From: Candidatus Competibacterales bacterium
GTDB taxonomy: Bacteria > Pseudomonadota > Gammaproteobacteria > Competibacterales > JAHEDQ01
NCBI GenBank assembly: GCA_041587415.1
Contig: JBFGYN010000001.1
Span: forward strand, 1 to 43,755
DNA length: 43,755 bases
Direction: 5' to 3'
Shown: positions 5,075-43,755 of the stretch, one piece after another
Layout: each line of letters opens with the position of its first letter
How positions within the stretch are numbered: the first letter of the stretch is position 1
Position numbers and translations under genes: made by a program
Notes under the pieces: generated by a model
Told to the model about the DNA's origin: nothing
Databases searched by the model: none
The model's input: the letters and a program-made list of their open reading frames with translations, nothing else

Positions 5075-5445
5075 TGGCTTGCTACCAGTGCCTTGGTGGC
5101 GTCGAGCACACCCTGGTACTGCTCGGGTTGCAGCTCCGAGAGCTTGTTGACGCCGAAGTTGGGGAACACCTCGTTCGGAACACGAGTCGGATCGGTCAGC
5201 TGGGACACCAGTCCCGCCATTGACTCGCGCAGCTGATCGATAGTCAGCTCAGGGGGCGGGGTCGTGACCTCCTGCACCGGAGGTGCGGCCTTCGCCGGCT
5301 TGGCCTTCTGGGGCTTCGCCGGCTTAGTCCCTATGTCGAGCCGCTGCTGTCCCGCATCCTCCAGAGTGGATTGACTCACGATCTCGATAATGGCCTGAGC
5401 CATCTCGCAATCGTGGGGGTTAGAGAGATCGATCGTCAGTTGCAT
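5071..5445 (-). CDS. Hypothetical protein with a Pro/Lys/Ala-rich linker
   Basis: 124-aa ORF, GAGG SD, translationally coupled to the DUF2800 gene. I recognised no motif. Confidence 0.6.
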   Translation of the reverse strand: MQLTIDLSNPHDCEMAQAIIEIVSQSTLEDAGQQRLDIGTKPAKPQKAKPAKAAPPVQEVTTPPPELTIDQLRESMAGLVSQLTDPTRVPNEVFPNFGVNKLSELQPEQYQGVLDATKALVASQ

Positions 5446-5456
5446 GGTGAGCTACC

Positions 5457-5783
5457 TCAAGTTTTGGGGCCGTAGACTCTGACCGACGCGGCCGTGCGGC
5501 GCAACTTGTCGCTAGTGTGCGCGGTGACCAGCTGACGCGACGGGTTCAGCTTTTTCGCCACTGCTTCCCAGTCGGTGACAGCAACCAGCTTTTCGCTCGC
5601 CTCGGTGACCGTCACACGGTAGTCGTCGTCCAGCTCGATAGTGCGCGCGCCACCGGCTTTGAGAGAGTCTTTCAAGAAAGCTTCCTGTCGCTTCAGGTCG
5701 GCCAGCTGAATCTGCACGTCAAGCAGTGCGCGTGCGGTGTCGACATCGGTGGTCGGAACGGGGAAAAAGACGTTCGGTTTCAT
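5457..5783 (-). CDS. Hypothetical coiled-coil protein; occupies the Gp157-like position upstream of DUF2800
   Basis: 108-aa ORF preceded by the conserved early leader gcactGAGGActgagccATG. Confidence 0.6.
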   Translation of the reverse strand: MKPNVFFPVPTTDVDTARALLDVQIQLADLKRQEAFLKDSLKAGGARTIELDDDYRVTVTEASEKLVAVTDWEAVAKKLNPSRQLVTAHTSDKLRRTAASVRVYGPKT

Positions 5784-5855
5784 GGCTCAGTCCTCAGTGC
5801 TCAGTTCACGTTGCGAAGTATGAGGGGCATCCCTGCCCCTGTCAACACCCTTGTA
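5784..5855 (-). promoter_or_regulatory. Early promoter cassette A
   Basis: The minus strand reads TTGACA (5840-5845), a 17-nt spacer, CATACT (5817-5822), then the shared leader gcactgaggactgagccATG. The spacer contains the inverted repeat AGGGGCA/TGCCCCT. Confidence 0.55.
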
Positions 5856-6503
5856 TCACCCTGCGTGCGCGGTCCCGTCGCAGTTCACATCCGGGCAGCG
5901 CAGCTCCGGGGCCTGCTCCAGCCACTTGCCCGTAGTGCGGAACACGAAGCCGCAAGTGTCGCACTCAGCCTTGATCATGCGCGTAGTCTGTTTCTTCTTG
6001 TTGCGAAGGTTGATCTTCGCGTGCGGATACGGGCCGAGCTTCGCGAGAATGGGCTGCACGGTTGCAGCGAAACGCTCGCCAACAGAGGTGTAACCTTTGC
6101 CGTGATACTCGTTGCCGATTGCAATGATCAGCCGTTTAAACGGGGCACGGTGGCCAACGGCGCAGCCGAGATACATGTGGCACATTTCGTGCGCCACGGT
6201 CTCGACAACTCCCATCACGTCGTCCTGCACCGGGCTCACTATCATCTCGGTGGTGCCGTCCGCGCTGGCAACCGGATCCCAGCACTCGCCGATGCGGGCA
6301 CGGGCCGACCCGCCACCCGGGAAGCTGCACGCGATGCGGTGCTTGGGCAGCTTCTCGAAGACGCGCCCGTGATTGTTCTCGGGGTTCGAGAAGATGTGCT
6401 CGTGAAGCTCCCGCACCAGGGCGCTGAGCCAGGACTCGCGCGTGTCGTGCGGGAAGTATGCAAGGCGGGGAAGGTTCGCGTTCTCGTGGGTCAGAAGGTT
6501 CAT
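5856..6503 (-). CDS. SprT-like zinc metallopeptidase with C-terminal zinc ribbon
   Basis: 215-aa ORF with the HExxH motif VAHEMCHMYLG and a C-terminal CDTCG...CPDVNCDG. Confidence 0.7.
   Translation of the reverse strand: MNLLTHENANLPRLAYFPHDTRESWLSALVRELHEHIFSNPENNHGRVFEKLPKHRIACSFPGGGSARARIGECWDPVASADGTTEMIVSPVQDDVMGVVETVAHEMCHMYLGCAVGHRAPFKRLIIAIGNEYHGKGYTSVGERFAATVQPILAKLGPYPHAKINLRNKKKQTTRMIKAECDTCGFVFRTTGKWLEQAPELRCPDVNCDGTAHAG
6134..6141. repeat. GTTTAAAC octamer, copy 4
   Basis: In the SprT-like gene, read on the minus strand as CCG TTT AAA CGG (P-F-K-R). Confidence 0.95.
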
Positions 6504-6570
6504 GGCTCAGTCCTCAGTGCACGTTTAAACAGTGTGGAGAGATCCTACAGGGCTGATACTGTAGTGTCAA
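6504..6570 (-). promoter_or_regulatory. Early promoter cassette B
   Basis: The minus strand reads TTGACA (6565-6570, containing the TGA stop of gene 6567..7010), a 17-nt spacer, TAGGAT (6542-6547), GTTTAAAC, then the shared leader and ATG 6503. Inverted repeat CTACAG/CTGTAG lies at 6545-6564. Confidence 0.6.
6523..6530. repeat. GTTTAAAC octamer, copy 5
   Basis: In the leader of early cassette B, between the -10 element and the SD. Confidence 0.95.
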
Positions 6571-7010
6571 CTCTTTTTGATGCACTCCGGACCGAGCCCG
6601 GACTTGATGCTCTCGGGGTGGGTCAGCTCGCGACCGCACCGGCCGCAGCGGTTCATATGGTGAACTTCGGCTTGCTCGCTAATGTCGCGATTGGCGTCGA
6701 GCATGTGAACCAGCCAGAGGAAGCCGCGCCAGCTGGGCGCGTCGCTGCCCACCTTGGATCCTTTAGTCTGATAGGCCACCAAAGTTCCGTTAGCTTTTCG
6801 CACTAGCATTCCAGCATAGGTGTAGTCGCGAGTGTTATCGGGGCCAGAGAGAACCGACACGAAAAATTTTCCGGAAATGAGACCGTTGGGGCTGGAAGCT
6901 TTGCCCGCTGTCGTCAACCGGTAGGTGTAGTGCCCGCCTGACGCCAAACTCTTCAGAGTGAACGTCGCGTTGCCTGCGGTGATGAAGCTTTTGATCTGCT
7001 CGCTATTCAT
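6567..7010 (-). CDS. Hypothetical protein with a C-terminal DUF6011-like zinc motif
   Basis: 147-aa ORF. The C-terminus CGRCGRELTHPESIKSGLGPEC matches the CxRCGRxLTxPxSxxxGxGPxC pattern. Confidence 0.65.
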   Translation of the reverse strand: MNSEQIKSFITAGNATFTLKSLASGGHYTYRLTTAGKASSPNGLISGKFFVSVLSGPDNTRDYTYAGMLVRKANGTLVAYQTKGSKVGSDAPSWRGFLWLVHMLDANRDISEQAEVHHMNRCGRCGRELTHPESIKSGLGPECIKKS

Positions 7011-7080
7011 GGCTCAGTCCTCGGTGCACGTGTAAACAGTTCAGAGGGGCATTATCGCCCCTCTGATACTGTCGTGTCAA
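7011..7080 (-). promoter_or_regulatory. Early promoter cassette C
   Basis: The minus strand reads TTGACA (7075-7080, containing the TGA stop of the helicase), an 18-nt spacer, GATAAT (7051-7056), GTTTACAC, the leader, then ATG 7010. The -10 hexamer forms the loop of a 9-bp hairpin, CAGAGGGGC/GCCCCTCTG (7042-7065). Confidence 0.7.
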
Positions 7081-8588
7081 CCCCCGTTCGGGAGGGCCAT
7101 GTGCACCTCCCGCTTGGCCCGAGTCGCTGCAACGTAAAGTAGGGCATTGGTCATGCGGCCGGCGGCGAGCTTGGCCGGGGCGAAGTACACCCGGTCAACA
7201 GTCTGCCCCTGGCAGCGGTGCACCGTCATCGCATAGTTGTAGCCAACGGGCAGGAACAAAGACTTGAAAGCGTGGTACGCCTTCCAGTTGCCGATCTCCT
7301 CGCAGTGCTCGGCAATGGCTCGCAGTCGCGCGGTGTAATCGGTGCCACCCAGCTTGGCGGTGTCGGCCTTCGACTCGGTCACCATGAACATGATCGGAAC
7401 CACCAAGCCGTTGTTCAGTTTGACGATGTAGCAGGGAACCCCTTCGACCTCGCCAGTCGTCACAGACTGCACGAGGTAAGACGTGCCGCTGTAGAACCGC
7501 ACGCGGTCCTCCTGAGTCGTACCGATGTCGGTTGTGGCCATCACCATCAAACGTTCATCCTCGATCACCGGCTCATGCTGGGCGCGCTCACTGCCGTAGA
7601 GTCCTGCACGGATCACTGCGTTAGCTTGCACGACATCGGTCCGGCGGAAGAACAGCATGCGCGCGTCCTCGCCCGGGCGGTCCATCAGGTCTTCGACGTA
7701 GCGCTCGATCATGTCGCTCACGCTGGCGTGAATGTGGATCCCCGTGCTGCCGGACCAGTTCTGCTCCGGAACCTGCGCCGGGGTGTTACGGGCCAGCTGC
7801 TCCAGCTGATACAGGTCAGAGTCCGCGCTGTAACGCATGGGCTGCGTTAGCTCGGCACTGACAGAGATCTTGGAAAGCACACTGTCAGTGTGCTGTCCGA
7901 CCGGGGGCAGCTGCTTCAGGTCACCGACGACCAGCAACTTGCCACCATAGCTCTCTGCCGCGCGCAGCAAGCGAGCGCCGATGTCGTCGGATACCATGCT
8001 GTACTCATCCACGATGAGCAGGCGGTGAGGGCTCAATCGGGCTACCAGCATCTCGCCACTGTCCGGCCCCCAAACGTACTCGGCCTTGGAGTCGACAAAC
8101 ACCTTCTCCAATCGCAGAGTGCTGGCGATCGTCTTCGGTTCGATCTTGAACGCGGCCAGCTGCTGCACGAGTACCTGAGTCGCGACATAGCTGGTAGCGC
8201 AAGCGTGCACGTTGTAGCCCAGCTCGATTGCACGACGGGCTACGTCCATGACGGTGTAGGACTTGCCGTAGCCTGCGCCACCTTCGAGCTTCGCGGCTGG
8301 CGCGTCACTCTGGAGCCACTCGGCGAGCAGGTCGGAGGCTGCCTGCTGGCTCGGGTTCAGGGTGTAGTTGACCTCGGTGGCCTGCACCGCGAGCAGCTGC
8401 TGGCTGTCGATAACAGCTCGAATGGCGTCCTGGTATTGATGTACGAAGTTCACCAGCCCGGGCCATGCGTCCGCCTCGCCCGCCTTCCGCAGCATCCAGC
8501 CCAGATAGCCCGGGTCAATGTTGGTGATCGGCGTGTCGCGGTACTTGCCGAAGGGGATGGTGATGATCTCGTGGTCGATGATGCTCAT
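7077..8588 (-). CDS. RecD/Dda-like superfamily 1 DNA helicase
   Basis: 503-aa ORF with Walker A GGAGYGKSYTV, Walker B LLIVDEYSMV and motif VI AMTVHRCQGQTVDRVY. The N-terminal IPFGKYRDTPI module is DUF3820-like. Confidence 0.88.
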   Translation of the reverse strand: MSIIDHEIITIPFGKYRDTPITNIDPGYLGWMLRKAGEADAWPGLVNFVHQYQDAIRAVIDSQQLLAVQATEVNYTLNPSQQAASDLLAEWLQSDAPAAKLEGGAGYGKSYTVMDVARRAIELGYNVHACATSYVATQVLVQQLAAFKIEPKTIASTLRLEKVFVDSKAEYVWGPDSGEMLVARLSPHRLLIVDEYSMVSDDIGARLLRAAESYGGKLLVVGDLKQLPPVGQHTDSVLSKISVSAELTQPMRYSADSDLYQLEQLARNTPAQVPEQNWSGSTGIHIHASVSDMIERYVEDLMDRPGEDARMLFFRRTDVVQANAVIRAGLYGSERAQHEPVIEDERLMVMATTDIGTTQEDRVRFYSGTSYLVQSVTTGEVEGVPCYIVKLNNGLVVPIMFMVTESKADTAKLGGTDYTARLRAIAEHCEEIGNWKAYHAFKSLFLPVGYNYAMTVHRCQGQTVDRVYFAPAKLAAGRMTNALLYVAATRAKREVHMALPNGG

Positions 8589-8656
8589 GGCTCAGTCCTC
8601 AGTGCTCGTGTAAACAGTACGGGGGCATTATCGCCCCCGTGATACTGTCGTGTCAA
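8589..8656 (-). promoter_or_regulatory. Early promoter cassette D
   Basis: The minus strand reads TTGACA (8651-8656), an 18-nt spacer, GATAAT (8627-8632) in the loop of hairpin CGGGGGC/GCCCCCG (8620-8639), GTTTACAC, the leader, then ATG 8588. Confidence 0.7.
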
Positions 8657-8666
8657 GCGGTTTCGG

Positions 8667-9218
8667 TCACTCGCGCATCGGCATGGCGATCAACGTAGCC
8701 CCTTTCAGGTTCATGAAGTTGGCCACGACAGGACCGAGGCCCTTTTTGTCGGCCGTTCGGAGCTTCACCCCCGGGTGCTCCAGGTCTAGCTCTCGCGTCG
8801 TGCGGGCGAGCAGCTCGGGGTTGATGATCAGCTGGTCGAAAGCCGTCTGCAGCGTGCTGGGCTCGGGTACCACTTTCGCCCAGTCCGGGAAGTCTCGGAT
8901 CGGGCTTTGCACGGGAACCTCGATAGAGAACGCGATGTCGTCGTTCCACTTCTGATAGATCAGCGTGGCCGTGGCCCCGCCTTCGTTCCAGCGCACCGTG
9001 ACTGCGCCGTTTTTGTATCCTCGCTTGATCTTGTTCTTCGGGTTGAAGAACAAGGTAAACGGCTCGCCGTCATGCTCGGTCGGAAGGATCAGCATGGCGT
9101 GGCCATCGATTGCAATCAGCTTGTTGTCCTCGACGCGGATGGCGTGCATTCCGCGCGTCTCATCTCCGAGGTTGGCAAGTAGTGCGTTAAAGTGGTCGCT
9201 GGGGATTACGATATACAT
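8667..9218 (-). CDS. Half-size DnaN (beta sliding clamp)-like protein
   Basis: 183-aa ORF with three colinear DnaN-like signatures: LIAIDGHAMLI (compare ATDGHRLA), RDFPDWAKVVP (compare FPDYRRVLP), and the C-terminal LIAMPMRE (compare VVMPMRL). Confidence 0.6.
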   Translation of the reverse strand: MYIVIPSDHFNALLANLGDETRGMHAIRVEDNKLIAIDGHAMLILPTEHDGEPFTLFFNPKNKIKRGYKNGAVTVRWNEGGATATLIYQKWNDDIAFSIEVPVQSPIRDFPDWAKVVPEPSTLQTAFDQLIINPELLARTTRELDLEHPGVKLRTADKKGLGPVVANFMNLKGATLIAMPMRE

Positions 9219-9289
9219 GGCTCAGTCCTCAGTGCTCGGTGTTGTTGAAACGCGAGAAGGATCTTGCCTGAGTGATACCAATGTGTCAA
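9219..9289 (-). promoter_or_regulatory. Early promoter cassette E
   Basis: The minus strand reads TTGACA (9284-9289), a 17-nt spacer, CAAGAT (9261-9266), GTTTCAAC, the shared leader, then ATG 9218. A 44-nt stretch is identical to cassette F except for one mismatch. Confidence 0.5.
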
Positions 9290-9345
9290 GCGGTTTCAGT
9301 CACTCGCGCATGGGGTAGGTAAAGTAGAGGGGCGTCATGCCCTCC

Positions 9346-9594
9346 TTAGTGATCTTGCTCGAAGCGTTCGGCCTCCATCGCAGCGCCGGCAGCCTCTTCT
9401 TTGATCTGCTCTCGCCAGTCGCGAGCCCTGCGCGTGACGTCCTGCATCGGCTCGCTGTTGAAAAGCTGCCGGCAAAGCTCGGCCGCGTCCTCTGGCGAGT
9501 AGATGCGGAGCCAGCGATAGTTCGCATCGAGAGAAAGGCCTTTCGCCTCTGCCCAGCGCTCCACCCGGCTCGGGTTGATTCCGTCGAATCCCAT
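9346..9594 (-). CDS. Hypothetical early protein (82 aa)
   Basis: The internal ATG 9594 (MGFDGINPSRVERW...) follows AGGAGAAGAAAG. The longer track ORF starting at 9699 would run through the promoter cassette. Confidence 0.6.
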   Translation of the reverse strand: MGFDGINPSRVERWAEAKGLSLDANYRWLRIYSPEDAAELCRQLFNSEPMQDVTRRARDWREQIKEEAAGAAMEAERFEQDH

Positions 9595-9665
9595 CTTTCT
9601 TCTCCTGGTGTGGCTGTTCGTTAAAACGCGAGAAGGATCTTGCCTGAGTGATACCAACGTGTCAA
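9595..9665 (-). promoter_or_regulatory. Early promoter cassette F, the first leftward promoter
   Basis: The minus strand reads TTGACA (9660-9665), a 17-nt spacer, CAAGAT (9637-9642), GTTTTAAC, then AGGAGAAGAAAG and ATG 9594. Confidence 0.5.
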
Positions 9666-9682
9666 GCTTTTTCTGCGGGGGC

Positions 9683-9712
9683 GTGACAGGATGGGCCACC
9701 GGGTGCTAGGCT
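9683..9712 (+). promoter_or_regulatory. Possible rightward promoter for the HTH gene
   Basis: GTGACA (9683-9688), an 18-nt spacer, TAGGCT (9707-9712). It is divergent from cassette F. The match to consensus is weak. Confidence 0.25.
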
Positions 9713-9740
9713 GACCCGATTGCATCACCGAGGAACGATC

Positions 9741-9980
9741 ATGCGGAACGGACGAGCGATGGGGCCGATCCTGGCCTACTTGGAGACCGAGCCCGCCGAG
9801 TGGGTGCGCGGTGTGCTGCTGCACAAGGGAATGAGTGCGCCGGAGTTGCACCGCAGGTGCGGGCTGCCGCCGTCGACGTGCCGCAGCTTCCTCAATGGCA
9901 ACCGTCGAAACCCGACAGTTGGACAGTTCCGACTGTTGCTATCCGTGGCGCTCGATGAACTGGGCGTGAAGCGGCCATAA
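9741..9980 (+). CDS. Small helix-turn-helix DNA-binding protein (Cro/XRE-like)
   Basis: ATG 9741 follows a GAGGA SD. The segment MSAPELHRRCGLPPSTCRSFLNG looks like an HTH. The gene lies at the divergent early control region. Confidence 0.65.
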   Translation: MRNGRAMGPILAYLETEPAEWVRGVLLHKGMSAPELHRRCGLPPSTCRSFLNGNRRNPTVGQFRLLLSVALDELGVKRP

Positions 9981-9984
9981 AAAA

Positions 9985-10003
9985 GCCCGCCTGAGCGGCG
10001 GGC
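9985..10003. terminator. GC-rich hairpin flanked by an A-tract; a terminator in the leftward sense
   Basis: GCCCGCC (9985-9991), loop TGAGC, GGCGGGC (9997-10003). AAAAAA precedes it on the plus strand, so the T-tract follows the hairpin only on the minus strand. Confidence 0.5.
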
Positions 10004-10046: not shown

Positions 10047-12530
10047 ATGTCGGAGTATACCGAAAATTTGTGCCAGTGGGCTCTCTGGTACGCGAGGCGC
10101 GGCTACGCCGTGATACCGATCGAGCCCAACCGCAAGACACCTTATAAAGGGTTCCGCTGGCGTGAGCAGGCGACCAGTGACTGGGAGCAGGTGCTGGAGT
10201 GGTGGACCCAGGCACCGGAGTCGAACATCGCCCTAGCCTGCGGCGAGCCTTCGGGCATTCATGTGCTCGACGTTGACCGCAAGGGGGGCGTGGACGGCTG
10301 GACGTGCGCGAGTCGCATCGTGGACCCCGAGACAACACCCTTCGCGCACACGCCCAGCGGCGGGTTCCACTTCTACTACACCTACGATCCCCAGCTCGGG
10401 AATCACAAGCTGCGCGACTTAGGGCTCGACATTCAGGGTACTGGGAGCTACGTCCTCGCGCCACCGTCGGTGGTGGACGGGAAGCCGTATGTCTGGGGCC
10501 GGGAGCTGGACTGTTTAAACGGCGCACCCGTGGCGCTCCGCGAGCTGGTGTTGCAGCGCAACAGTGGGTCTGTGTCAACTGGCGTACAGGGCTGTCCGCC
10601 AGTCCCCGAGGAGTGGGTCGAGATCGAAGAGATCCCCGAGCCCTGGATGTTGGGTATCAAGCTGGACAAGGTGCGCGAGGCCCAGGGCGAGGGCGACCGC
10701 AGTGCCGCGCTCTACAGCATCGCGCTGAGCTTGTTCAACCGGATCGACAACCCAGCCAGAGTGCTGGCCTCCCTGATGACCTGGGCACCGGAGGCAGCCG
10801 TGGACCGGCGAGGCTCGGACGCGGCCACTTGGATGTGGAAGTACGCGGTATGGCCGGCGAAGCAGCAGCACGACGCGCGGCAGGGGATGCTGCGACAGAT
10901 CGTGTATGAGGGGGAGGGGGGTAATAAGCCGCCGGGTTCTTCCCCCCTTCACACCATCACGCCCGAGACTACCTGGGCTGGCCTGGGATACGACCCAGAC
11001 ACCTTCGAGATAATCGACGGGGAGGACAAGCTGGGGGGTAATAAGCCGCCGGGTTCTTCCCCCTCCCCTGTCCATGACCTGCGCGCTCAGCTGACGCAGC
11101 TGCAGCCTGGGGATAACGAGGAGGCTCGGGCCTTCCTGGGGCAGCTGGTGGGGCTCTCGGAGCTTGACCGCGAGGAGATGCTGCAGGGGCTGTCGTCGCA
11201 GCTGGGGCTCACGCTGCGAGTGCTCAGGAGCGAATACAAGGCGATCGAGAAGGCGCTCCGTGACGCCGAGCGCGCCACCTTCGGCGATGAGCCCGGGCGA
11301 CCCTTCGACTGGGGCGAGTACATCTACCTGCAGCGGCCCGACGCGGTGTGGAGCCGCGCGGAGGGCGGGTCGATGCGCCGTGAAGCGTTCCGAGCGAGCT
11401 ACGGGTCCGAGCGGTTCGATAAGGCATTCCCGGAGGACGGCAACGGGTGCATCCCGAGGCTGTTCGACATCACCTACTGGCCCGGGCAGGGCGAGCGGGT
11501 GTGGGTGGACAAGCGGGAGCGTTTAAACATCTGGACACCGGGGGAGCTGCAGCCTGCACCGGGTGACCCAGAGCCCTGGCTCGACATATTCAGGCACTCG
11601 GAGTACCCGGCCGAGGAGGTCGAGCATATGCTCGACTGGTTCGCCTACCTGCTGCAGCACCCTGACAAGAAGATCAACCACGGGCTGGTGCTCGGCGGCG
11701 CACCGGGGGTTGGCAAAGACACCTTGTTGAAGCCGATACGCGCCGCGCTCGGGGCACACAACTGCTCGAACCCGTCGGCCGACCTGTTGCTGACATCGTT
11801 CTCGGACTGGGCCATCAACAAGAAGCTGGTGATTGTTCAGGAGGTCGGTTGGGGCGGGTCGAAGGCGGCACGCGAGATTGAGCACAAGCTCAAGCCGCTA
11901 CTGGCCTCGGGCGCGGGGTATCTGTCAGTGCACCCGAAGGGGCGACCGGCTTATGAGGTGCCTGACGTGGTGCAGGTAGTGATGGTGACCAACGAACGCC
12001 ACCCGCTGCATATCTCACTCGGCGACAGGCGGTACTTCCTGAGCTGGGCCGAGCGGCAGCCGTACATGCAGGACCGCGTGGCGTGGGCTCGCTACTGGGA
12101 GGACATGCACCGCTGGCTCGACACCGGGGGCAACGCCATCGTGTACCACTACCTGCTGCACCGTGACGTGAGCGGGTTCCAGCCCGGAGCGCCGGCACCG
12201 GACACCGAGTGGAAGCGCGAGGTGGTGGAGGCTGGACGGCATGAGCTGACACCTATCCTCGCCGAGCGAATCGAACACCGTCAGGGGCTGTTCAGTCAAG
12301 ACGTGCTGAGCTTGGAGGAAGTTCAAGCGGCGCTGCTGGGGGTGACGGTGTACTCGCGGTCAGTGAATCAACGGGACTGCGTGAGAGCGTTGCGAGAGCT
12401 GGAGGACATGGGAATCGTGGTGAAAAAGACGTTTAAGACTGAACGTACCACGAAACGCAGGTTCGTAATTCGGAACTTCGAAGAGTGGAAGAATGCCAGT
12501 CTGGAAGACTTGGAGAAATATTGCAGTTAG
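10047..12530 (+). CDS. Bifunctional primase-polymerase (prim-pol) fused to a D5/VirE-type P-loop helicase
   Basis: 827-aa ORF. The N-terminus YARRGYAVIPIEP...IHVLDVDRKGG...TPSGGFHFYY is prim-pol-like. The central LVLGGAPGVGKDTL is a Walker A and LVIVQEV a Walker B. A GGAGGA SD precedes it. Confidence 0.88.
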   Translation: MSEYTENLCQWALWYARRGYAVIPIEPNRKTPYKGFRWREQATSDWEQVLEWWTQAPESNIALACGEPSGIHVLDVDRKGGVDGWTCASRIVDPETTPFAHTPSGGFHFYYTYDPQLGNHKLRDLGLDIQGTGSYVLAPPSVVDGKPYVWGRELDCLNGAPVALRELVLQRNSGSVSTGVQGCPPVPEEWVEIEEIPEPWMLGIKLDKVREAQGEGDRSAALYSIALSLFNRIDNPARVLASLMTWAPEAAVDRRGSDAATWMWKYAVWPAKQQHDARQGMLRQIVYEGEGGNKPPGSSPLHTITPETTWAGLGYDPDTFEIIDGEDKLGGNKPPGSSPSPVHDLRAQLTQLQPGDNEEARAFLGQLVGLSELDREEMLQGLSSQLGLTLRVLRSEYKAIEKALRDAERATFGDEPGRPFDWGEYIYLQRPDAVWSRAEGGSMRREAFRASYGSERFDKAFPEDGNGCIPRLFDITYWPGQGERVWVDKRERLNIWTPGELQPAPGDPEPWLDIFRHSEYPAEEVEHMLDWFAYLLQHPDKKINHGLVLGGAPGVGKDTLLKPIRAALGAHNCSNPSADLLLTSFSDWAINKKLVIVQEVGWGGSKAAREIEHKLKPLLASGAGYLSVHPKGRPAYEVPDVVQVVMVTNERHPLHISLGDRRYFLSWAERQPYMQDRVAWARYWEDMHRWLDTGGNAIVYHYLLHRDVSGFQPGAPAPDTEWKREVVEAGRHELTPILAERIEHRQGLFSQDVLSLEEVQAALLGVTVYSRSVNQRDCVRALRELEDMGIVVKKTFKTERTTKRRFVIRNFEEWKNASLEDLEKYCS
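10513..10520. repeat. GTTTAAAC octamer, copy 6
   Basis: In the primase gene as TGT TTA AAC (C-L-N). Confidence 0.95.
10916..11063 (+). repeat. Exact 31-nt direct repeat with a 117-nt period inside the primase linker
   Basis: ggggggtaataagccgccgggttcttccccc occurs at 10916-10946 and again at 11033-11063. It is in frame and encodes GGNKPPGSSP twice. Confidence 0.9.
11521..11528. repeat. GTTTAAAC octamer, copy 7
   Basis: In the primase gene as CGT TTA AAC (R-L-N). Confidence 0.95.
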
Positions 12531-12836
12531 CTGGTCACCCCTGGTCACCTCCTGGCCACCATAGGTGACCAGGAAAATGGGGAAAAGATCAACGAGTTAA
12601 CTATCCTGGCCAGGCTGGTCACCTTTTTTAGGGGTTTTCGTAAGGAGGAGATCACTTAATGTAATGTATCACTTTAATAGGTGTTTTCCAGGAGGGCTAA
12701 ATAGGGAAACACCTGACCAGCCTGACCAGGATGCTGGTAAGGAGGTGAAATTCCACGGTGTATCAGCAGGTTACGAGCAAACTGCAATAATTTAGACGTG
12801 ACCAGGATTACCTGACCAGGGTTCAACACGAGGTGT
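12531..12836. promoter_or_regulatory. Iteron-rich non-coding hub: candidate replication origin or early/late switch
   Basis: CTGGTCACC-type copies lie at 12531, 12541, 12552 (one mismatch) and 12615, with the reverse copy GGTGACCAG at 12564. TGACCAG(G) copies lie at 12714, 12724, 12799 and 12814. The two oppositely oriented arrays flank an AT-rich core (12624-12710). Confidence 0.6.
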
Positions 12837-13235
12837 ATGAAAATGTCAACTGGAATTGAAGAGAAGTCGGAAGATCTTATCGAGGGTACAGAGGAGTGCG
12901 TTCGCCGACTTAGAGTGTGGCGGATGCCGGGAGATCTGGCAGCCGAGCCGATTCTGCTGTGGATGCAGATCAAGGAAAACGCCGAACGTGCGATTCATGA
13001 CCTTCGGCATCGAGGGCAGGATGAGACTGAGCAGGAGCAGGAGCGGGAACGTTGGGCGAGCACAACTCTCGGCGCTCCGATTGTCCACGTTCCGGCCACC
13101 GAAGATCCCCGGGTGGTGGCTGCGAGGGTCGAAGCTCTTCGAACCTTGGTGGAGTTTCGAGGGAGGCTGATGCCCGCTAGCCCGATATGGGTCGAGGTGG
13201 AAAAGGCTCTAATTCGGATTATCGAGGAGCTGTGA
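12837..13235 (+). CDS. Hypothetical acidic protein
   Basis: 132-aa ORF with a GAGGTG SD. It is the first gene after the non-coding hub. Confidence 0.6.
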   Translation: MKMSTGIEEKSEDLIEGTEECVRRLRVWRMPGDLAAEPILLWMQIKENAERAIHDLRHRGQDETEQEQERERWASTTLGAPIVHVPATEDPRVVAARVEALRTLVEFRGRLMPASPIWVEVEKALIRIIEEL

Positions 13236-13237
13236 AC

Positions 13238-13666
13238 GTGCCAGAGCTTAAGCGGTTCATTGCCGACCCCGTTGCTGCGCGCAGGGAAGCGCGTAAGCAG
13301 CTGCGCGAGTCGATCCAGGGGCGGCATCTGCTGCTCAGCATTGAAGACATCGTGAAGCGGCTCACGAGCGGTGTAGAGCTAACCGTGGACCCGCCCCCCG
13401 GTGTTGACCCCGACACTGTGCCGCTGAGCAACGATCGCATTTCGGCGCTCAGGGCGGCGTTGGACGCGCACTTCAAGCTGCTGAACAAGGTGCTGCCAGA
13501 TCTCAAGGCTGTGGAGCTGACGGGGGCCGATGGCGGGCCGTTGCAGGTCGAAGAGCAGGAACGTTCGGCCACCGAGGTGGCGGCTCGCTTGGTGTGGCTG
13601 CTTCGCACTCAAGGCGAGACGATCGATGTCGATACCGAAGAGTCAGAACACGACTTTTTAGATTGA
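13238..13666 (+). CDS. Hypothetical protein; weak resemblance to small terminase subunits
   Basis: GTG 13238 lies 8 nt after GAGGAG. It has a helical core (ALRAALDAHFKLLNKVLPDLKAVEL) and an acidic tail. The functional guess is weak. Confidence 0.45.
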   Translation: MPELKRFIADPVAARREARKQLRESIQGRHLLLSIEDIVKRLTSGVELTVDPPPGVDPDTVPLSNDRISALRAALDAHFKLLNKVLPDLKAVELTGADGGPLQVEEQERSATEVAARLVWLLRTQGETIDVDTEESEHDFLD

Positions 13667-13691
13667 CACTTGCGTGTCGAAGGGGGATGAT
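13663..13691 (+). promoter_or_regulatory. Possible rightward sigma70-like promoter
   Basis: TTGACA (13663-13668, containing the TGA stop of the upstream gene), a 17-nt spacer, GATGAT (13686-13691). The predicted transcript start falls close to ATG 13698. Confidence 0.35.
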
Positions 13692-13697
13692 GCCGTC

Positions 13698-13826
13698 ATG
13701 GAGAAGCTGTTCAAAAAATTTGATGACTATCTGGACTGGATCCTGATAGCGGGTTGCGTGGTTATGACGTTCACTCAGCTGTATCTGGTCGGTTATGCGA
13801 TGGCGCTGCTGCTGGGGGTGCGATGA
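13698..13826 (+). CDS. Small membrane protein (42 aa)
   Basis: MEKLFKKFDDYLDWILIAGCVVMTFTQLYLVGYAMALLLGVR. It has a hydrophobic C-terminal half, and its stop overlaps the next ATG as ATGA. It is too short to appear in the ORF track. Confidence 0.5.
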   Translation: MEKLFKKFDDYLDWILIAGCVVMTFTQLYLVGYAMALLLGVR

Positions 13827-14367: not shown

Positions 14368-14450
14368 CCGAGCCCGGCTTGTTCGAGTGGCTGCTAGCTG
14401 CGTGGCTGTACGCCATGCTGGTCTACCTGATACTGGGAGGAGGTGAATAG
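14364..14450 (+). CDS. Possible 28-aa hydrophobic peptide
   Basis: GTG 14364 overlaps the upstream stop as GTGA. The peptide reads TEPGLFEWLLAAWLYAMLVYLILGGGE, and its TAG overlaps the methyltransferase GTG. Confidence 0.3.
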   Translation: MTEPGLFEWLLAAWLYAMLVYLILGGGE

Positions 14451-15001
14451 TGAACGCTCGATATGATGAAGTGGGGCTAGTGCACAGTCCTAAGCGAATG
14501 GACTGGCAGACACCACCCGAGCTGTTTCATGTTTTGGACGGCGAGTTCAACTTTGGCTGGGATGCGGCAGCGACTGCAGATAGCAACGTGCTGTTGCTTC
14601 GAAAGCGGACGTGCGTGTTGGACTATCACCGCTACTTTGGCCCCGATCATTTGCTGGACCCAAAGTGTCGGGATGCTTTGACTGCTAATTGGATCTCTGG
14701 ACAAGGCCCGTACTTCTTGAACCCCCCGTACGGCCGTGAGCAAATTGCGTTTATACGCAAAGCCGAAGAGGAGTCTAGATTCTGGGGTTCGACTGTCGTT
14801 TGCTTGCTTCCGGCGCGACCTGATACTATCGTATTCCACGAGGTGATCATGCCGGCTGCCGCCGAGGTGCGGTTTTTAAAAGGACGGCTCACGTTTGTCG
14901 GTGCTGACGCACCGGCCCGGTTTCCGAGCATGATTGTGGTATTCGATATAGCTCGGCGGACGGGCGGCGCTCGTGTGCGTTGCTGGGATTGGAGGAGGTA
15001 G
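14450..15001 (+). CDS. Phage Dam-family DNA N6-adenine methyltransferase
   Basis: 183-aa ORF with WQTPPELFHVLDGEFNFGWDAAA and the catalytic NPPY (FLNPPYGRE). A GGGAGGAGGTGA SD precedes it. Confidence 0.88.
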   Translation: MNARYDEVGLVHSPKRMDWQTPPELFHVLDGEFNFGWDAAATADSNVLLLRKRTCVLDYHRYFGPDHLLDPKCRDALTANWISGQGPYFLNPPYGREQIAFIRKAEEESRFWGSTVVCLLPARPDTIVFHEVIMPAAAEVRFLKGRLTFVGADAPARFPSMIVVFDIARRTGGARVRCWDWRR

Positions 15002-42844: not shown

Positions 42845-43754
42845 CACCCTTCTGCCGGCGGTACTCGTTCATCGCGGCCTTGAGCCCGTCTTGAGTCTGG
42901 CCCTTGTCGTTTAAACTCATAGCGACCAGCCGGTCCACGGTGTCTTCGGATAGCAACCGGTGCACGCGGATATTGTTGCGCTGGCCTTGTCGCACGAGTC
43001 GAGCGATCACTTGCTCATAATTCTCAAGCGACCAGTCGAGTCCGAAGAACACGAGATCGGTGCACGGCCCCTGCTGCAGATTCAAGCCATGCCCCATGCT
43101 TTGGGGGTGGCCTAGCAACAGGGGCACTTCGCCCAGGTTCCACCGCTGCTCTAAGTCGATAGTCTTAGCAGTGCTCAGGTGTGAGCCTAGTATCTCGGCC
43201 TCGGGGAACCGTTTCTGAATGCGCTCGGCATCGTGTTTAAACAGATACGCCACCAGCACCGGCTTACCGGCAGCCTCTTCGATGACCTCGGCCAGCGCGT
43301 CCAACTTCAGATCGTGAACGTGCACCCACTCCGGCGAGTCGGACTGCAGATACATCGCACCGTTGGTGAACTGGCGGCACTTCATTGACAACGCGGCAGC
43401 GTAGAAGACCTCGATATTCACGGTGTCCAGCTCCAGGAACATTTCGCGCTCTAACTGTTCGTACTTGGTCCGCAGCTCTCCGACGATGGGCACATCCACG
43501 TCATTGATCAAGATCTCCGGCAGCTCCAGGTAATCGGCACTGTCCATCTGCAGGGTGATATCTTCAATCTGATCGTGGATCTGCTGCTCGGCTCCAGGTC
43601 GGCAACGGTGACGGCCGAAGTGTCCGTATCCGTCAAAGTACATGTACCGGTCACGAAACGCGGTGATGCTCTGCCCCAGCCTCTGACCGCTATCAATGGC
43701 CAGGAACTGACCAAAGAGGTTGTCGTACCCGTTGCTCGCGGGAGTGCCGGTCAA
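42756..43754 (-). CDS. SNF2-family helicase, C-terminal part (continuation of 1..677)
   Basis: The track ORF begins TGTPASNGYDNLFGQ, the same sequence encoded at 1-141. The helicase C-domain is visible as LLGHPQSMGHGLNLQ and QVIARLVRQGQ (motif VI). Confidence 0.88.
   Translation of the reverse strand: MTGTPASNGYDNLFGQFLAIDSGQRLGQSITAFRDRYMYFDGYGHFGRHRCRPGAEQQIHDQIEDITLQMDSADYLELPEILINDVDVPIVGELRTKYEQLEREMFLELDTVNIEVFYAAALSMKCRQFTNGAMYLQSDSPEWVHVHDLKLDALAEVIEEAAGKPVLVAYLFKHDAERIQKRFPEAEILGSHLSTAKTIDLEQRWNLGEVPLLLGHPQSMGHGLNLQQGPCTDLVFFGLDWSLENYEQVIARLVRQGQRNNIRVHRLLSEDTVDRLVAMSLNDKGQTQDGLKAAMNEYRRQKGVTRSTAPAHHKVLAPRSRQSAPPPLPGSG
42909..42916. repeat. GTTTAAAC octamer, copy 16
   Basis: In the SNF2 gene, read on the minus strand as AGT TTA AAC (S-L-N). 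Confidence 0.95.
43235..43242. repeat. GTTTAAAC octamer, copy 17
   Basis: In the SNF2 gene, read on the minus strand as CTG TTT AAA CAC (L-F-K-H). Confidence 0.95.
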
Positions 43755-43755
43755 G
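43615..43755. repeat. Terminal direct repeat copy 2, identical to 1..141
   Basis: Exact 141-nt identity with the start of the window. Confidence 0.95.

What the first reader, a model, noticed from the sequence alone, without database searches (positions are those of the whole stretch)
5784..9665. Six repeated early promoter / stem-loop / leader cassettes, one per early gene, with upstream stop codons embedded in the -35 box
Every intergenic gap of the leftward early block carries the same architecture on the minus strand: TTGACAC-N5-TATCA..., a -10-like hexamer 17-18 nt after the -35 box, a GTTTAAAC-like octamer, then the near-identical leader gcactGAGGActgagccATG.
- In cassettes C and D the -10 hexamer GATAAT forms the loop of a perfect 7-9 bp GC hairpin. 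Cassettes A and B have a different hairpin in the spacer.
- The TGA stops of genes 6567..7010 and 7077..8588 lie inside the TTGACA of the next promoter. The same design appears at 13663 on the other strand.
- Cassettes E and F share 44 nt with one mismatch.

This resembles the mobile promoter-early stem-loop cassettes described in T4-type phages, which drive modular gene shuffling. A hairpin that presents the -10 element could also couple termination of one gene to initiation of the next, or could be recognised in extruded form.
Basis: partly seen in the sequence, partly recalled or inferred. Interest (0 to 1): 0.62.

Follow-up and report, generated by a model that had tools for sequence, protein, structure and literature searches.

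The report
Repeated early promoter cassettes in phage
Six near-identical control modules (a host-type promoter fused to a probable repressor site, in three cases a GC-rich hairpin, and a shared ribosome-binding leader) each sit in front of one early gene of an uncultured marine phage; they closely resemble the mobile promoter/stem-loop cassettes known from T4-type phages, and one of their parts belongs to an unexplained genome-wide palindrome.

Summary
Six minus-strand cassettes (ATGs at 9593, 9218, 8588, 7010, 6503, 5783) carry an exact TTGACA, a -10-like hexamer 17-18 nt later and a Shine-Dalgarno leader. Five share TTGACAC-N4-GTATCA and five share the 20-nt leader GCACTGAGGACTGAGCCATG.

Corrections to the finding:
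- Only C and D (z -7.4, -5.7), and more weakly A, have real hairpins. B, E and F do not.
- The cassettes cover only the first six early genes.
- "TTGACAC-N5-TATCA" is an imperfect dyad, TGACAC-N4-GTATCA. It is conserved in 22 promoters of four related metagenomic phages, so it is probably an operator for the divergent 79-aa HTH gene (9741-9980).
- GTTTAAAC is not cassette-specific. It is the commonest 8-mer of the genome (17 copies, 0.24 expected), and some relatives use CTTTAAAG instead.

The anatomy matches published PeSLs: upstream stop codon, sigma70 promoter, G-run/C-run stem-loop in the spacer or over the -10, SD and ATG. Hairpin-bearing promoters recur in relatives with unrelated stem sequences, and C and D differ by compensatory changes. 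Cassette E is a D/F chimera, and gene content between cassettes turns over among relatives.

Verdict: a PeSL-like composite promoter/operator/attenuator cassette in a non-T4 phage. It is a new variant of a known kind. No transcript or binding data exist.

The parts
9594..9665 (-). Cassette F. -35 at 9660-9665, dyad TGACACGTTGGTATCA at 9649-9664, -10 CAAGAT at 9637-9642, GTTTTAAC at 9620-9627, SD AGGAG at 9602-9606. ATG at 9593 (82-aa gene of unknown function).
   Evidence: no hairpin (z +0.5)
9219..9289 (-). Cassette E. -35 at 9284-9289, dyad at 9273-9288, -10 CAAGAT at 9261-9266, GTTTCAAC at 9244-9251, SD GAGGA at 9226-9230. ATG at 9218 (183-aa gene, PHROG 3007 'RusA-like'). It is a chimera: the left flank matches D, the core matches F, the leader matches D.
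8589..8656 (-). Cassette D. -35 at 8651-8656, dyad at 8640-8655, -10 GATAAT at 8627-8632 in the loop of an 8-bp hairpin at 8619-8640, GTTTACAC at 8608-8615, SD at 8596-8600. ATG at 8588 (Dda/RecD-like SF1 helicase).
   Evidence: -23.1 kcal/mol, z -5.7
7011..7080 (-). Cassette C. -35 at 7075-7080 contains the helicase TGA stop. Dyad at 7064-7079, -10 GATAAT at 7051-7056 in the loop of a 10-bp hairpin at 7041-7066, GTTTACAC at 7030-7037, SD at 7018-7022. ATG at 7010 (DUF6011 protein).
   Evidence: -27.6 kcal/mol, z -7.4
6504..6570 (-). Cassette B. -35 at 6565-6570 contains the TGA stop of 6567..7010. Dyad at 6554-6569, -10 TAGGAT at 6542-6547, exact GTTTAAAC at 6523-6530, SD at 6511-6515. ATG at 6503 (SprT-like protein). 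The 6-bp CTACAG/CTGTAG stem is not above chance.
   Evidence: z -0.6
5784..5858 (-). Cassette A. Degenerate upstream dyad TGATACAAGGGTGTTGA at 5842-5858, -35 at 5840-5845, 6-bp hairpin GGGGCA/TGCCCC at 5824-5839 filling the spacer, -10 CATACT at 5817-5822, SD at 5791-5795. ATG at 5783 (108-aa gene). No GTATCA and no octamer.
   Evidence: z -2.2; a hairpin promoter sits at the equivalent position in five relatives
9741..9980 (+). Divergent 79-aa helix-turn-helix gene, the candidate reader of the TGACAC-N4-GTATCA dyads.
   Evidence: Sub-threshold HTH_3/HTH_26 hits on residues 25-68. AF2 five-helix model, pLDDT 81. Foldseek top hits are XRE-family controller C proteins, SinR and HipB, with weak E-values. 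Orthologues at the same position in L012, L014, L016.
13663..13697 (+). Seventh promoter of the same design on the other strand. TTGACA contains the TGA stop of 13187..13666. Dyad TGACACTTGCGTGTCG, -10 GATGAT after 17 nt, and an ATG at 13698 only 6 nt after the -10.
9300..9338 (-). 12-codon mini-ORF (MTPLYFTYPMRE) with its own AAGGAGG. Its last codons, stop and following bases repeat the 3' end of the 183-aa gene upstream of cassette D. Read as a remnant of a deleted or recombined gene.
   Evidence: direct reading; repeat family D3
9985..10003 (-). Canonical intrinsic terminator (7-bp GC stem followed by TTTTTT) upstream of cassette F. A second one at 2925-2944 lies between the SSB and PolA genes. 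They show what U-tract terminators look like in this genome; the cassette hairpins lack the U-tract.

Best explanation
The six elements are composite regulatory cassettes of the PeSL type in a ~44-kb circularly assembled genome of an uncultured marine tailed phage. No integrase or prophage form was found for it. Each cassette has up to four parts.

(a) Promoter. A host sigma70-type early promoter (TTGACA, 17-18 nt, xAxxxT) starts transcription about 30 nt upstream of the ATG.

(b) Operator. The -35 box doubles as the left half of a 16-bp dyad, TGACAC-N4-GYATCA. This is most likely bound by a dimer of the divergently encoded 79-aa HTH protein. One protein could then shut off, or otherwise co-regulate, all early promoters and the 13663 promoter together.

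(c) Hairpin. In cassettes A, C and D a G-run/C-run hairpin lies in the spacer or around the -10. It cannot form in a transcript started at its own promoter. It does form in RNA read through from the promoter upstream. There it most likely attenuates transcription and/or protects the 3' end of the upstream message, so each gene's expression depends mainly on its own promoter.

(d) Leader. A near-identical 5' UTR (ACTGTTTAMAC ... GAGGA-N7-ATG) gives uniform translation initiation.

The copies are kept alike within a genome by duplication or gene conversion. They also offer 30-50-bp homology patches at which early genes are gained, lost and reordered.

Shown here: the sequence anatomy, its statistical excess, its conservation and covariation in relatives, the chimeric structure of E, and the gene turnover.

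Inferred: promoter activity, repressor binding, attenuation and recombination.
For: Promoters:
- The only five matches of at least 10/12 to the sigma70 consensus in the whole genome are cassettes A-D and 13663.
- All lie at gene boundaries in the sense orientation.
- 32 promoters of the same build sit upstream of early genes in six related contigs whose helicases are 51-68% identical.

Operator:
- In 22 promoters of four genomes, spacer positions 7 and 12-17 are nearly invariant (C; G, Y, A, T, C, A). The four bases between them vary freely.
- Free-standing near-perfect dyads occur in the regulatory regions of L011, L014 and L016, for example TTGATACAAGCGTATCAA.
- L012 has a diverged HTH (recognition helix STIRSVMNG instead of STCRSFLNG). 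It uses TTGACGCA-GT-TGCGTCAA instead.
- L017 has no HTH orthologue in the 19 kb held and lacks the element.
- The HTH model is a five-helix XRE-like fold.

Hairpins:
- C and D fold far better than shuffles (z -7.4, -5.7).
- C and D differ by two both-sided compensatory changes (G-C to A-T, C-G to G-C) plus a 2-nt insertion that lengthens the stem.
- Perfect stems of 6-10 bp occur in 11 of 32 family promoters, including W-B's 6-bp stem that is not above chance; the other 21 have at most 5 bp. Six have the -10 in the loop and three lie within the spacer.
- Stem sequences are unrelated, but most keep a G-rich 5' arm and a C-rich 3' arm.
- The promoter ahead of the DUF2800-exonuclease block carries a hairpin in all six genomes that include it.

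Literature:
- PeSLs have exactly this layout. Their stem-loop terminated transcription in a lacZ reporter (PMC2839356).

Shuffling:
- E is a D/F/D mosaic with a 12-codon gene remnant beside it.
- L012 has three 84-nt cassette copies at 94-96% identity.
- The order of the core genes differs between genomes.
- The genes between DUF6011 and SprT-like number none in the window and L011, two in L014 and five in L016. L014 and L016 share none of these, although their core proteins are about 70% identical.
Against: - No RNA data exist for this phage and its host is unknown. Promoter use, start sites and timing are therefore untested.
- The hairpins lack the U-tract that canonical terminators in the same genome have. 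Termination would have to be non-canonical or partial.
- B, E and F have no significant hairpin.
- The HTH assignment rests on sub-threshold Pfam hits and weak Foldseek E-values of 0.085 or more. The link to the dyad rests on position and a correlation over about five lineages.
- Copies within one genome are not independent samples, so part of the conservation reflects recent duplication.
- The one contig that appears to lack the gene between F and E (L005) cannot be told apart from an assembler choice. The shared repeat is 34 nt, longer than k = 31.
Confidence: 0.6

Rival explanations
1. Immunity-type silencing. The dyad-bearing promoters are operator/promoter pairs of a CI-like repressor, the 79-aa HTH. 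This repressor would keep the whole genome silent in a carrier or episomal state, while the HTH gene, the prim-pol/helicase gene and the iteron region (12530-12830) act as a plasmid-like replicon. The cassettes would then be immunity determinants first, not PeSL-like shuffling modules.
For: - All seven strong promoters of the genome carry the dyad or a degenerate form of it.
- The HTH gene and the prim-pol/DUF5906 gene are rightward neighbours, followed by a 300-bp non-coding region with about 10 CTGGTCACC/GGTGACCAG repeats.
- Genome-wide repressor sites are known from Cluster A stoperators (PMC9283540).
Against: - No integrase, partition or telomere-resolvase gene was found among the proteins scanned.
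- No prophage-like relatives were found in 185,579 species genomes.
- The HTH protein is only Cro-sized.
Confidence: 0.15
2. The hairpins act in DNA, not RNA. As extruded cruciforms they would either present the -10 bases single-stranded to RNA polymerase, or serve as targets for the phage's structure-specific nucleases or recombination proteins.
For: - The -10 hexamer is in the loop in six family promoters.
- The genome encodes a 'RusA-like' protein and a VRR-NUC protein.
- The PeSL authors speculated that a protein might bind the stem-loop (PMC2839356).
- N4 virion RNA polymerase uses hairpin promoters (my own knowledge).
Against: - Extrusion would destroy the 17-18-bp -35/-10 geometry, which is itself strictly kept.
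- Three hairpins lie wholly in the spacer with the -10 outside.
- There is no ORF of N4 virion-RNAP size; the largest ORFs are 846 and 827 aa, and no RNA-polymerase family hit was found among the proteins scanned.
- The consistent G-run-first polarity on the sense strand points to a strand-specific, RNA-level role.
Confidence: 0.07
3. The promoters are read by a phage-directed or alternative form of RNA polymerase, making them middle promoters. GYATCA would be part of that promoter specificity rather than an operator.
For: The spacer element is as conserved as the -35 itself. Related SU10/phiEco32-type podoviruses encode their own sigma factor (my own knowledge; an SU10 adaptor domain is present).
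Against: - No sigma-like gene was detected.
- The element is a dyad with the -35 box.
- It also occurs as free-standing perfect palindromes without a -10.
- It is missing from the hairpin-type promoters, which keep TTGACA and the -10.
Confidence: 0.1
4. Neutral recent duplication. The cassettes are alike only because one promoter-leader segment was copied several times recently, and their shared sub-elements have no separate functions.
For: Within-genome copies are far more alike than orthologous cassettes between genomes. Examples are 5 identical leaders in the window and three 84-nt copies in L012.
Against: - The same module order persists in genomes with only about 50% protein identity.
- The variable positions are exactly those not expected to be read: the N4 of the dyad and the stem sequences with compensatory changes.
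Confidence: 0.05

Closest known systems
PeSLs (promoter-early stem-loops) of T4-type myoviruses RB49, phi1, PST, nt-1 (Arbiol et al. 2010, PMC2839356; Comeau et al. 2014, PMC4122927)
   Same: - The layout is the same: stop codon of the upstream gene, sigma70 -35/-10, a polyG/polyC stem-loop most often between the boxes or over the -10, then SD and ATG.
- Many copies sit in a variable early region, upstream of small genes of unknown function.
- Chimeric copies occur, and gene content turns over between copies.
   Different: - The phage is a ~44-kb non-T4 phage with an SU10-type adaptor, family A polymerase and prim-pol, and a 59% GC genome.
- Only 3 of the 6 copies have a credible stem-loop.
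- The AT-rich upstream tract is weak.
- There is an extra conserved dyad (operator) in the spacer, and a nearly invariant 20-nt leader.
- Promoter, terminator and mini-circle activities were shown for PeSLs and are untested here.
Cro/CI-type operators overlapping early promoters, with a divergent small XRE-family HTH gene (lambdoid phages; R-M controller C proteins)
   Same: A 16-18-bp dyad overlaps the -35 and spacer. A small HTH gene is transcribed divergently from the first regulated promoter. The predicted five-helix fold resembles C.Esp1396I, SinR and HipB.
   Different: - One operator sits on each of six to seven promoters spread over 4 kb and both arms, instead of a clustered OR/OL.
- No lysogeny module was found.
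- Binding is not shown.
Start-associated sequences (SAS/ESAS) of Cluster K mycobacteriophages (Pope et al. 2011, PMC3203893)
   Same: A conserved asymmetric sequence containing the SD core lies a few bases upstream of ATG starts. It is confined to the non-structural half of the genome, is present in front of unrelated genes, and sometimes contains the upstream stop codon.
   Different: The sequence, the host phylum and the length differ (13 bp against 20 nt). SAS are not tied to a promoter. ESAS inverted repeats are 17 bp with no support for an RNA hairpin, whereas the stems here covary.
Genome-wide iterated palindromes: the 17-bp TGTTCGGNNNCCGAACA repeat of Cluster O mycobacteriophages (more than 30 copies, about one third in coding regions, function unknown; PMC4351075) and cyanobacterial HIP1 GCGATCGC (my own knowledge)
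   Same: GTTTAAAC is an exact palindrome about 70-fold over-represented. It lies in both coding and non-coding DNA and is denser in the early arm. It is invariant within a genome and specific to a lineage.
   Different: It is only 8 bp with an AT-rich core in a GC-rich genome. The outer base pair switches (G..C to C..G) between sister lineages. It is enriched 0-24 nt upstream of start codons.
Cluster A mycobacteriophage stoperators (PMC9283540)
   Same: Many copies of one repressor site are distributed over a phage genome in short intergenic gaps.
   Different: Stoperators are asymmetric, are oriented with transcription and block elongation. Here the dyad coincides with the promoters themselves.
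8-nt template recognition sequence of the NrS-1 phage prim-pol (PMC7102993)
   Same: It gives a precedent for a phage prim-pol that needs a specific 8-nt sequence. The window encodes a Prim-Pol/DUF5906 protein.
   Different: NrS-1 has two copies near the genome centre, against 17 dispersed copies here. Nothing links the octamer to priming except co-occurrence.

Membership tests
PeSL (promoter-early stem-loop) cassettes | Sigma70-consensus -35 and -10 boxes at 16-18-bp spacing | tested here: met
   Exact TTGACA in 6/6 cassettes. The -10 hexamers have A2 and T6 at 17-18 nt. A-D score 10-11/12.
PeSL (promoter-early stem-loop) cassettes | Stable stem-loop, typically polyG then polyC, within or beside the promoter (between the boxes, or over the -10 or -35) | tested here: inconclusive
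   Met for C and D (z -7.4, -5.7) and A (z -2.2, conserved in relatives). Not met for B, E and F. Of 32 family promoters, 11 have perfect stems of 6 bp or more, one of them (W-B) not above chance.
PeSL (promoter-early stem-loop) cassettes | Intergenic unit running from the upstream stop codon to the SD and start codon of the next gene | tested here: met
   Stops lie inside or 11-20 nt before the -35. SD GAGGA lies 7 nt before the ATG.
PeSL (promoter-early stem-loop) cassettes | AT-rich tract upstream of the -35 | tested here: inconclusive
   Short A-runs occur in F, B, D and E (gaaaaagc, aaaaagag, gaaaccgc) but not in C or A. About half of the family promoters have one.
PeSL (promoter-early stem-loop) cassettes | Many copies concentrated in hyperplastic regions, upstream of ORFans, with indels, replacements and chimeric copies between relatives | tested here: met
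   Six copies lie in 4 kb. ORFans turn over and core genes are reordered among seven genomes. E is chimeric with a gene remnant beside it. No strain pair is close enough to map a crossover.
PeSL (promoter-early stem-loop) cassettes | Demonstrated promoter and terminator activity; mini-circle formation | not testable with these tools
   No RNA runs hold the sequence. Only assembled contigs are available.
PeSL (promoter-early stem-loop) cassettes | Carried by a T4-type myovirus | tested here: not met
   The genome is 43.7 kb, with SU10-type adaptor, family A polymerase, prim-pol, DUF2800 exonuclease and gp2.5-like SSB. The closest GenBank phage has a PolA only 41% identical.
Cro/CI-type repressor-operator pair | Dyad-symmetric operator of 14-18 bp overlapping a promoter | tested here: met
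   TGACAC-N4-GTATCA is symmetric at 5 of 6 positions and spans the -35 and spacer. It is conserved in 22 promoters. Perfect free-standing dyads occur in relatives.
Cro/CI-type repressor-operator pair | Adjacent small HTH (XRE-family) protein gene | tested here: inconclusive
   The gene 9741-9980 lies divergent from cassette F. Its HTH hits are below Pfam cut-offs. The AF2 five-helix model matches XRE proteins with TM about 0.55 but E of 0.085 or more.
Cro/CI-type repressor-operator pair | Specific binding of the protein to the operator | not testable with these tools
   Only a lineage correlation exists. Orthologues with STCRSFLNG go with GYATCA dyads. L012 with STIRSVMNG goes with TGCGTCAA dyads.
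Canonical intrinsic (Rho-independent) terminator | GC-rich hairpin followed directly by a U-tract | tested here: not met
   The cassette hairpins are followed by ACUGUUUAC or UCAUACUUC. The scan lists only 9985-10003 and 2925-2944 as hairpin plus T-run on this strand.
Cluster K start-associated sequence (SAS) | The 13-bp motif GGGATAGGAGCCC, 3-7 bp upstream of starts | tested here: not met
   The sequence is different (GCACTGAGGACTGAGCC). Only the position and the SD content are analogous (PMC3203893).
N4-type hairpin promoter | Virion RNA polymerase gene and a 5-7-bp stem with a 3-nt loop | tested here: not met
   There is no ORF of N4 virion-RNAP size (largest 846 and 827 aa) and no polymerase-family hit among the proteins scanned. 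Loops are 4-11 nt.

The most novel reading that the evidence does not exclude
The cassettes may be the visible part of a two-layer cis-code shared by an uncultured marine phage family.

Layer 1 is a dyad operator fused to every sigma70 -35 box. It would be read by one small HTH protein.

Layer 2 is an 8-bp iterated palindrome:
- It is GTTTAAAC in the window, L011, L014 and L016, and CTTTAAAG in L012 and L015.
- It is enriched just upstream of start codons.
- At one site it occupies the same PolA codon position in two lineages, with the outer base pair swapped.

This palindrome would be read by an unidentified phage factor. One candidate role is a dispersed priming or initiation signal for the Prim-Pol/helicase, analogous to the 8-nt recognition sequence of NrS-1. 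Another is a site for a symmetric DNA-binding protein that organises or gates the whole genome.
Probability: 0.25. Interest if true: 0.78.

Novelty: new variant of a known kind. Interest (0 to 1): 0.58.

Why it matters
- PeSLs have so far been described in T4-type myoviruses. Finding the same design in an unrelated GC-rich marine phage lineage suggests it is a convergent or widespread solution. That design is the promoter, a G/C stem-loop inside it, the upstream stop codon and the SD.
- It would give each early gene its own insulated expression unit and supply homology for gene shuffling.
- The added operator would let one small protein switch a whole set of dispersed promoters. The system is compact and easy to test with synthetic fragments.
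- The iterated palindrome with a lineage-specific flank switch is an unexplained genome-wide signal. It could reveal a new DNA-recognition system, whether for priming, regulation or genome organisation, in uncultured phages.

Tried and rejected
- **Megablast** of 5400-10000 against 50,697 GenBank phages gave no match. By tblastn the helicase and PolA are below 60% identical to every record, with the listed best matches at 24-27% and 39-41%.
- **Exact-pattern scans with the 20-nt leader.** Viral contigs gave 0 matches. Species genomes gave 2 and JGI metagenomes gave 5. All are single bacterial stop/start junctions without promoter or octamer, so chance matches.
- **The search for related loci** with the helicase gave no relatives in viral contigs. 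In species genomes only distant ones appeared, at most 40% identity over short segments. There is therefore no prophage form and no host.
- **RNA runs:** none. **Rfam:** no family. **tRNAs:** none.
- **Contig L005**, which joins the F flank directly to the E leader without the 82-aa gene, was considered as a natural deletion. It was set aside: the shared repeat is 34 nt, longer than k = 31, the other runs break there with doubled depth, and only contigs are available.
- **Run X5** holds the same strain at low depth, so it gives no variant information.
- **Homologue search for the 79-aa HTH protein** found only itself.
- **The Dam-like methyltransferase (14450-15001)** was considered as reader of GTTTAAAC. 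This is unlikely, because no homologue is found in the held parts of L012, L014 or L016, which all carry the motif.
- **The palindrome ACATTAC-N7-GTAATGT** of the relatives is absent from the window.
- **The Thiohalocapsa phage** has neither the dyad promoters nor the octamer.

Full report
**1. What is there**

On the minus strand, six intergenic elements precede the ATGs at 9593 (F), 9218 (E), 8588 (D), 7010 (C), 6503 (B) and 5783 (A).
- All six have an exact TTGACA. All have a hexamer with A at position 2 and T at position 6, placed 17 or 18 nt downstream: CAAGAT, CAAGAT, GATAAT, GATAAT, TAGGAT, CATACT.
- Five (B-F) have TTGACAC-N4-GTATCA exactly. With up to 2 mismatches allowed there are 8 matches in the window against 0.58 expected.
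- Five (A-E) end in GCACTGAGGACTGAGCCATG with at most one mismatch, against 0 expected.
- F has another leader (AGGAG-N7-ATG).
- E and F share 44 nt with one mismatch, or 54 nt at 93%.
- The TGA stops of 6567..7010, 7077..8588 and, on the other strand, 13187..13666 are bases 2-4 of a TTGACA.
- A scan of the whole 43.7-kb window for matches of at least 10/12 to the sigma70 consensus returns five sites only: A, B, C, D and 13663. The simulated mean is 1.1.

Three corrections apply:
- The cassettes serve only the first six genes of a longer leftward block.
- The architecture is not uniform. A lacks GTATCA and the octamer, and F lacks the common leader.
- The stem-loops are real only in C (-27.6 kcal/mol, z -7.36), D (-23.1, z -5.70) and, modestly, A (-13.2, z -2.22). 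B (z -0.58), E and F are indistinguishable from shuffles.

**2. Context**

The window is a whole contig and is circular. An SNF2-helicase ORF runs off the right end and continues to coordinate 737.

The leftward block encodes, in order:
- an 82-aa protein of unknown function
- a 183-aa protein (PHROG 'RusA-like')
- a Dda/RecD-like helicase
- a DUF6011 protein
- a SprT-like protein
- two small proteins
- a DUF2800 PD-(D/E)XK exonuclease
- a gp2.5/Enc34-like SSB
- a canonical terminator
- family A DNA polymerase, VRR-NUC and SNF2 helicase

The rightward genes are a 79-aa HTH protein, a Prim-Pol/DUF5906 primase-helicase, a Dam-like methyltransferase, terminase, portal, scaffold, capsid and an SU10-type adaptor.

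No integrase was found among the proteins scanned and no tRNA gene is present. The phage occurs in marine metagenomes. It has no close relative among GenBank phages. The best match is Thiohalocapsa phage LS06-2018-MD04, with PolA 41% identical.

**3. Relatives**

Helicase homologues at 51-68% identity led to six metagenomic contigs with the same replication module: L011, L012/L013, L014, L015, L016 and L017. Their early intergenic gaps contain 32 promoters of the same build.

Each genome has its own 'flavour' of cassette, repeated several times. L012, for example, has three 84-nt copies at 94-96% identity. Cassettes within a genome are thus kept alike, while the module order is kept across the family.

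**4. The spacer element is a dyad, probably an operator**

In 22 promoters of the window, L011, L014 and L016, position 7 after the start of TTGACA is C in 22/22. Positions 12-17 read G (22), Y, A (20), T (21), C (22), A (21). Positions 8-11 and 18-22 vary.
- GYATCA is the reverse complement of TGATRC, so the element TGACAC-N4-GYATCA is a 16-bp dyad whose left half is the -35 box.
- Free-standing, more perfect dyads without a -10 occur in the main regulatory regions of relatives. An example is TTGATACAAGCGTATCAA in L016. This fits a preferred half-site TTGATAC that is bent to TTGACAC where it must also serve as a -35 box.
- The 13663 promoter has TGACACTTGCGTGTCG.

Directly divergent from cassette F lies a 79-aa gene (9741-9980).
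- Its residues 25-68 give sub-threshold hits to several HTH families.
- Its AlphaFold model (pLDDT 81, five helices) is most like XRE-family dimers such as R-M controller C proteins, SinR and HipB. TM is about 0.55 and the E-values are weak.
- Orthologues sit at the same place in L014 and L016. They are 47-53% identical, have the recognition helix STCR(S/A)FLNG and go with the same dyad.
- L012 has a diverged copy (STIRSVMNG) and uses TTGACGCA-GT-TGCGTCAA.
- L017 has no orthologue in the 19 kb held and lacks the element.

I infer that this protein binds the dyads and co-regulates all these promoters. Binding has not been shown.

**5. The hairpins**

C and D are otherwise almost identical, but their stems differ. 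Two positions are changed on both sides (G-C to A-T, C-G to G-C), and a 2-nt insertion in C extends the stem into the dyad.

Across the family, perfect stems of 6-10 bp occur in 11 of 32 promoters, counting W-B, whose 6-bp stem is not above chance. The remaining 21 have 5 bp or fewer.
- Six have the -10 in the loop and three lie within the spacer.
- Stem sequences are unrelated, but most keep a G-rich 5' arm and a C-rich 3' arm on the sense strand.
- The promoter that opens the exonuclease-SSB-polymerase block carries such a hairpin in all six genomes that include it (W-A, L011-3777, L014-11072, L015-5071, L016-14336, L017-16578).

This is covariation for a nucleic-acid structure.

The hairpin lies upstream of the predicted start of its own promoter. 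It can therefore exist only in RNA read through from upstream, or as a cruciform in DNA. It lacks the U-tract seen in the genome's two canonical terminators. The most likely role is attenuation or 3'-end protection of the upstream message.

In PeSLs the equivalent stem-loop cut lacZ expression as strongly as rrnB T1 (PMC2839356).

**6. Comparison with PeSLs**

The published description reads as follows. [quoted passage not shown] The elements are preferentially upstream of ORFans in hyperplastic regions, and recombination between them produces indels, chimeric PeSLs and mini-circles.

Cassettes A, C and D fit this point for point.

Signs of recombination here:
- E is a mosaic. Its left 31 nt, including the last codons and stop of a gene, match the flank of D. 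Its 44-nt core matches F. Its 22-nt leader matches D.
- Beside E lies a 12-codon ORF with its own SD (9300-9338). This ORF ends like the 183-aa gene.
- Among relatives the core genes helicase, DUF6011 and SprT-like occur in three different orders.
- The genes between DUF6011 and SprT-like number none in the window and L011, two in L014 and five in L016. L014 and L016 share none of these, although their core proteins are about 70% identical.

A contig that seems to lack the gene between F and E (L005) cannot be trusted, because the shared repeat exceeds the assembler's word length.

Membership in the PeSL family as defined fails on the host-phage criterion, since this is not a T4-type phage. 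Three of the six copies also lack the stem-loop. The working resemblance is strong.

**7. The octamer is something else**

Exact GTTTAAAC occurs 17 times in the window against 0.24 expected. It is the commonest palindromic 8-mer; among all 8-mers only its overlapping neighbour CGTTTAAA counts more. The genome is 58.7% GC.
- 17 of the 19 TTTAAA in the genome carry the G..C flanks.
- One-mismatch variants are rare: 11 in all, 5 of them the copies in cassettes C-F.
- Twelve sites lie inside genes, in both frames that avoid the stop codon.
- Five lie 0-19 nt upstream of start codons, and two of those supply the upstream TAA stop.

Counts in the relatives:

| Locus | Motif | Count |
|---|---|---|
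| L011 | GTTTAAAC | 5 of 5 TTTAAA |
| L014 | GTTTAAAC | 10 of 13 TTTAAA |
| L016 | GTTTAAAC | 8 of 11 TTTAAA |
| L012 | CTTTAAAG | 18 of 18 TTTAAA |
| L015 | CTTTAAAG | 8 of 9 TTTAAA |
| L017 | none | 0 TTTAAA in 19 kb |

One PolA codon position carries GTTTAAAC in L014 and CTTTAAAG in L012. Flanks add little beyond Y/R at positions -1/+1.

The methyltransferase has no homologue in the held parts of the motif-bearing relatives, so it is an unlikely reader.

The symmetric flank switch favours a symmetric double-strand reader. A priming signal for the prim-pol is an alternative, with a precedent in NrS-1, whose prim-pol needs an 8-nt template sequence (PMC7102993).

The nearest described parallel is the 17-bp palindrome of Cluster O mycobacteriophages. 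It has more than 30 copies, about one third in coding regions, and its function is unknown (PMC4351075).

**8. Verdict**

The finding is a real, non-chance feature. The best explanation (confidence 0.6) is a PeSL-like composite cassette: a host-type early promoter fused to an operator, an RNA-level attenuator hairpin in half of the copies, and a homogenised translation leader. The copies also serve as recombination patches.

It is a new variant of a known kind. All functional steps are inferred from sequence, comparison and the PeSL literature. No transcript, binding or recombination data exist for this phage.

Noticed in passing
window 1695, 3643, 4699, 6134, 6523, 10513, 11521, 13912, 17522, 18990, 21020, 25293, 26396, 35321, 37477, 42909, 43235: The exact palindrome GTTTAAAC occurs 17 times against 0.24 expected. 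Relatives use GTTTAAAC or, in L012 and L015, CTTTAAAG. Its reader is unknown.
   Followed up: partly
window 12530-12830: A 300-bp non-coding, lower-GC region lies between the prim-pol/helicase gene and the next genes. It holds about 10 copies of CTGGTCACC / GGTGACCAG in both orientations. This looks like an iteron-type origin or a packaging site. The conserved 159-aa gene 13187-13666 follows it.
   Followed up: partly
window 42756-43755 joined to 1-737: An SNF2-family helicase ORF runs across the contig ends, so the contig is a circular or permuted complete genome. No integrase and no tRNA gene were detected.
   Followed up: yes
window 9300-9338 (-): A 12-codon ORF with a strong SD. Its end repeats the 3' end of the 183-aa gene, so it looks like the scar of a deletion or recombination next to cassette E.
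   Followed up: partly
window 13663-13700 (+): The rightward promoter's -10 (GATGAT) ends 6 nt before an ATG (13698), which suggests a leaderless or near-leaderless transcript. It is the only strong sigma70-like promoter facing the 29-kb late gene block.
   Followed up: no
L011 60-80; L014 6600-6625; L016 9330-9355; L017 about 6290, 8390 and 15110: A conserved palindrome ACATTAC-N7-GTAATGT lies upstream of a main early promoter in four relatives. It is absent from the window.
   Followed up: partly
L017 7107-7157, 8009-8068, 8663-8715, 15521-15576, 15883-15943; L012 5821-5885, 6768-6845, 8195-8279: Other family members repeat a promoter-less module: a GC hairpin (for example CCGGGGCCTCCGGGCCCCGG) directly followed by an SD and ATG. 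The hairpin and leader modules therefore also occur on their own.
   Followed up: no
L012 7892, 8513 (also L013): The called start codons overlap the -10 box (TATAATG or TACAATG) of repeated 84-nt cassettes. These gene starts are probably mis-called.
   Followed up: no
L028 (Thiohalocapsa phage LS06-2018-MD04) 38670-43401: The closest GenBank phage has its own repeated early leaders (GACAACCC 18 times, CCTAACCC runs, AAGGTTAGCC 12 times) but no TTTAAA palindrome and no dyad promoters.
   Followed up: partly
window 14450-15001 (+): A Dam-family N6-adenine methyltransferase gene with no homologue in the parts of L012, L014 and L016 that were fetched.
   Followed up: partly
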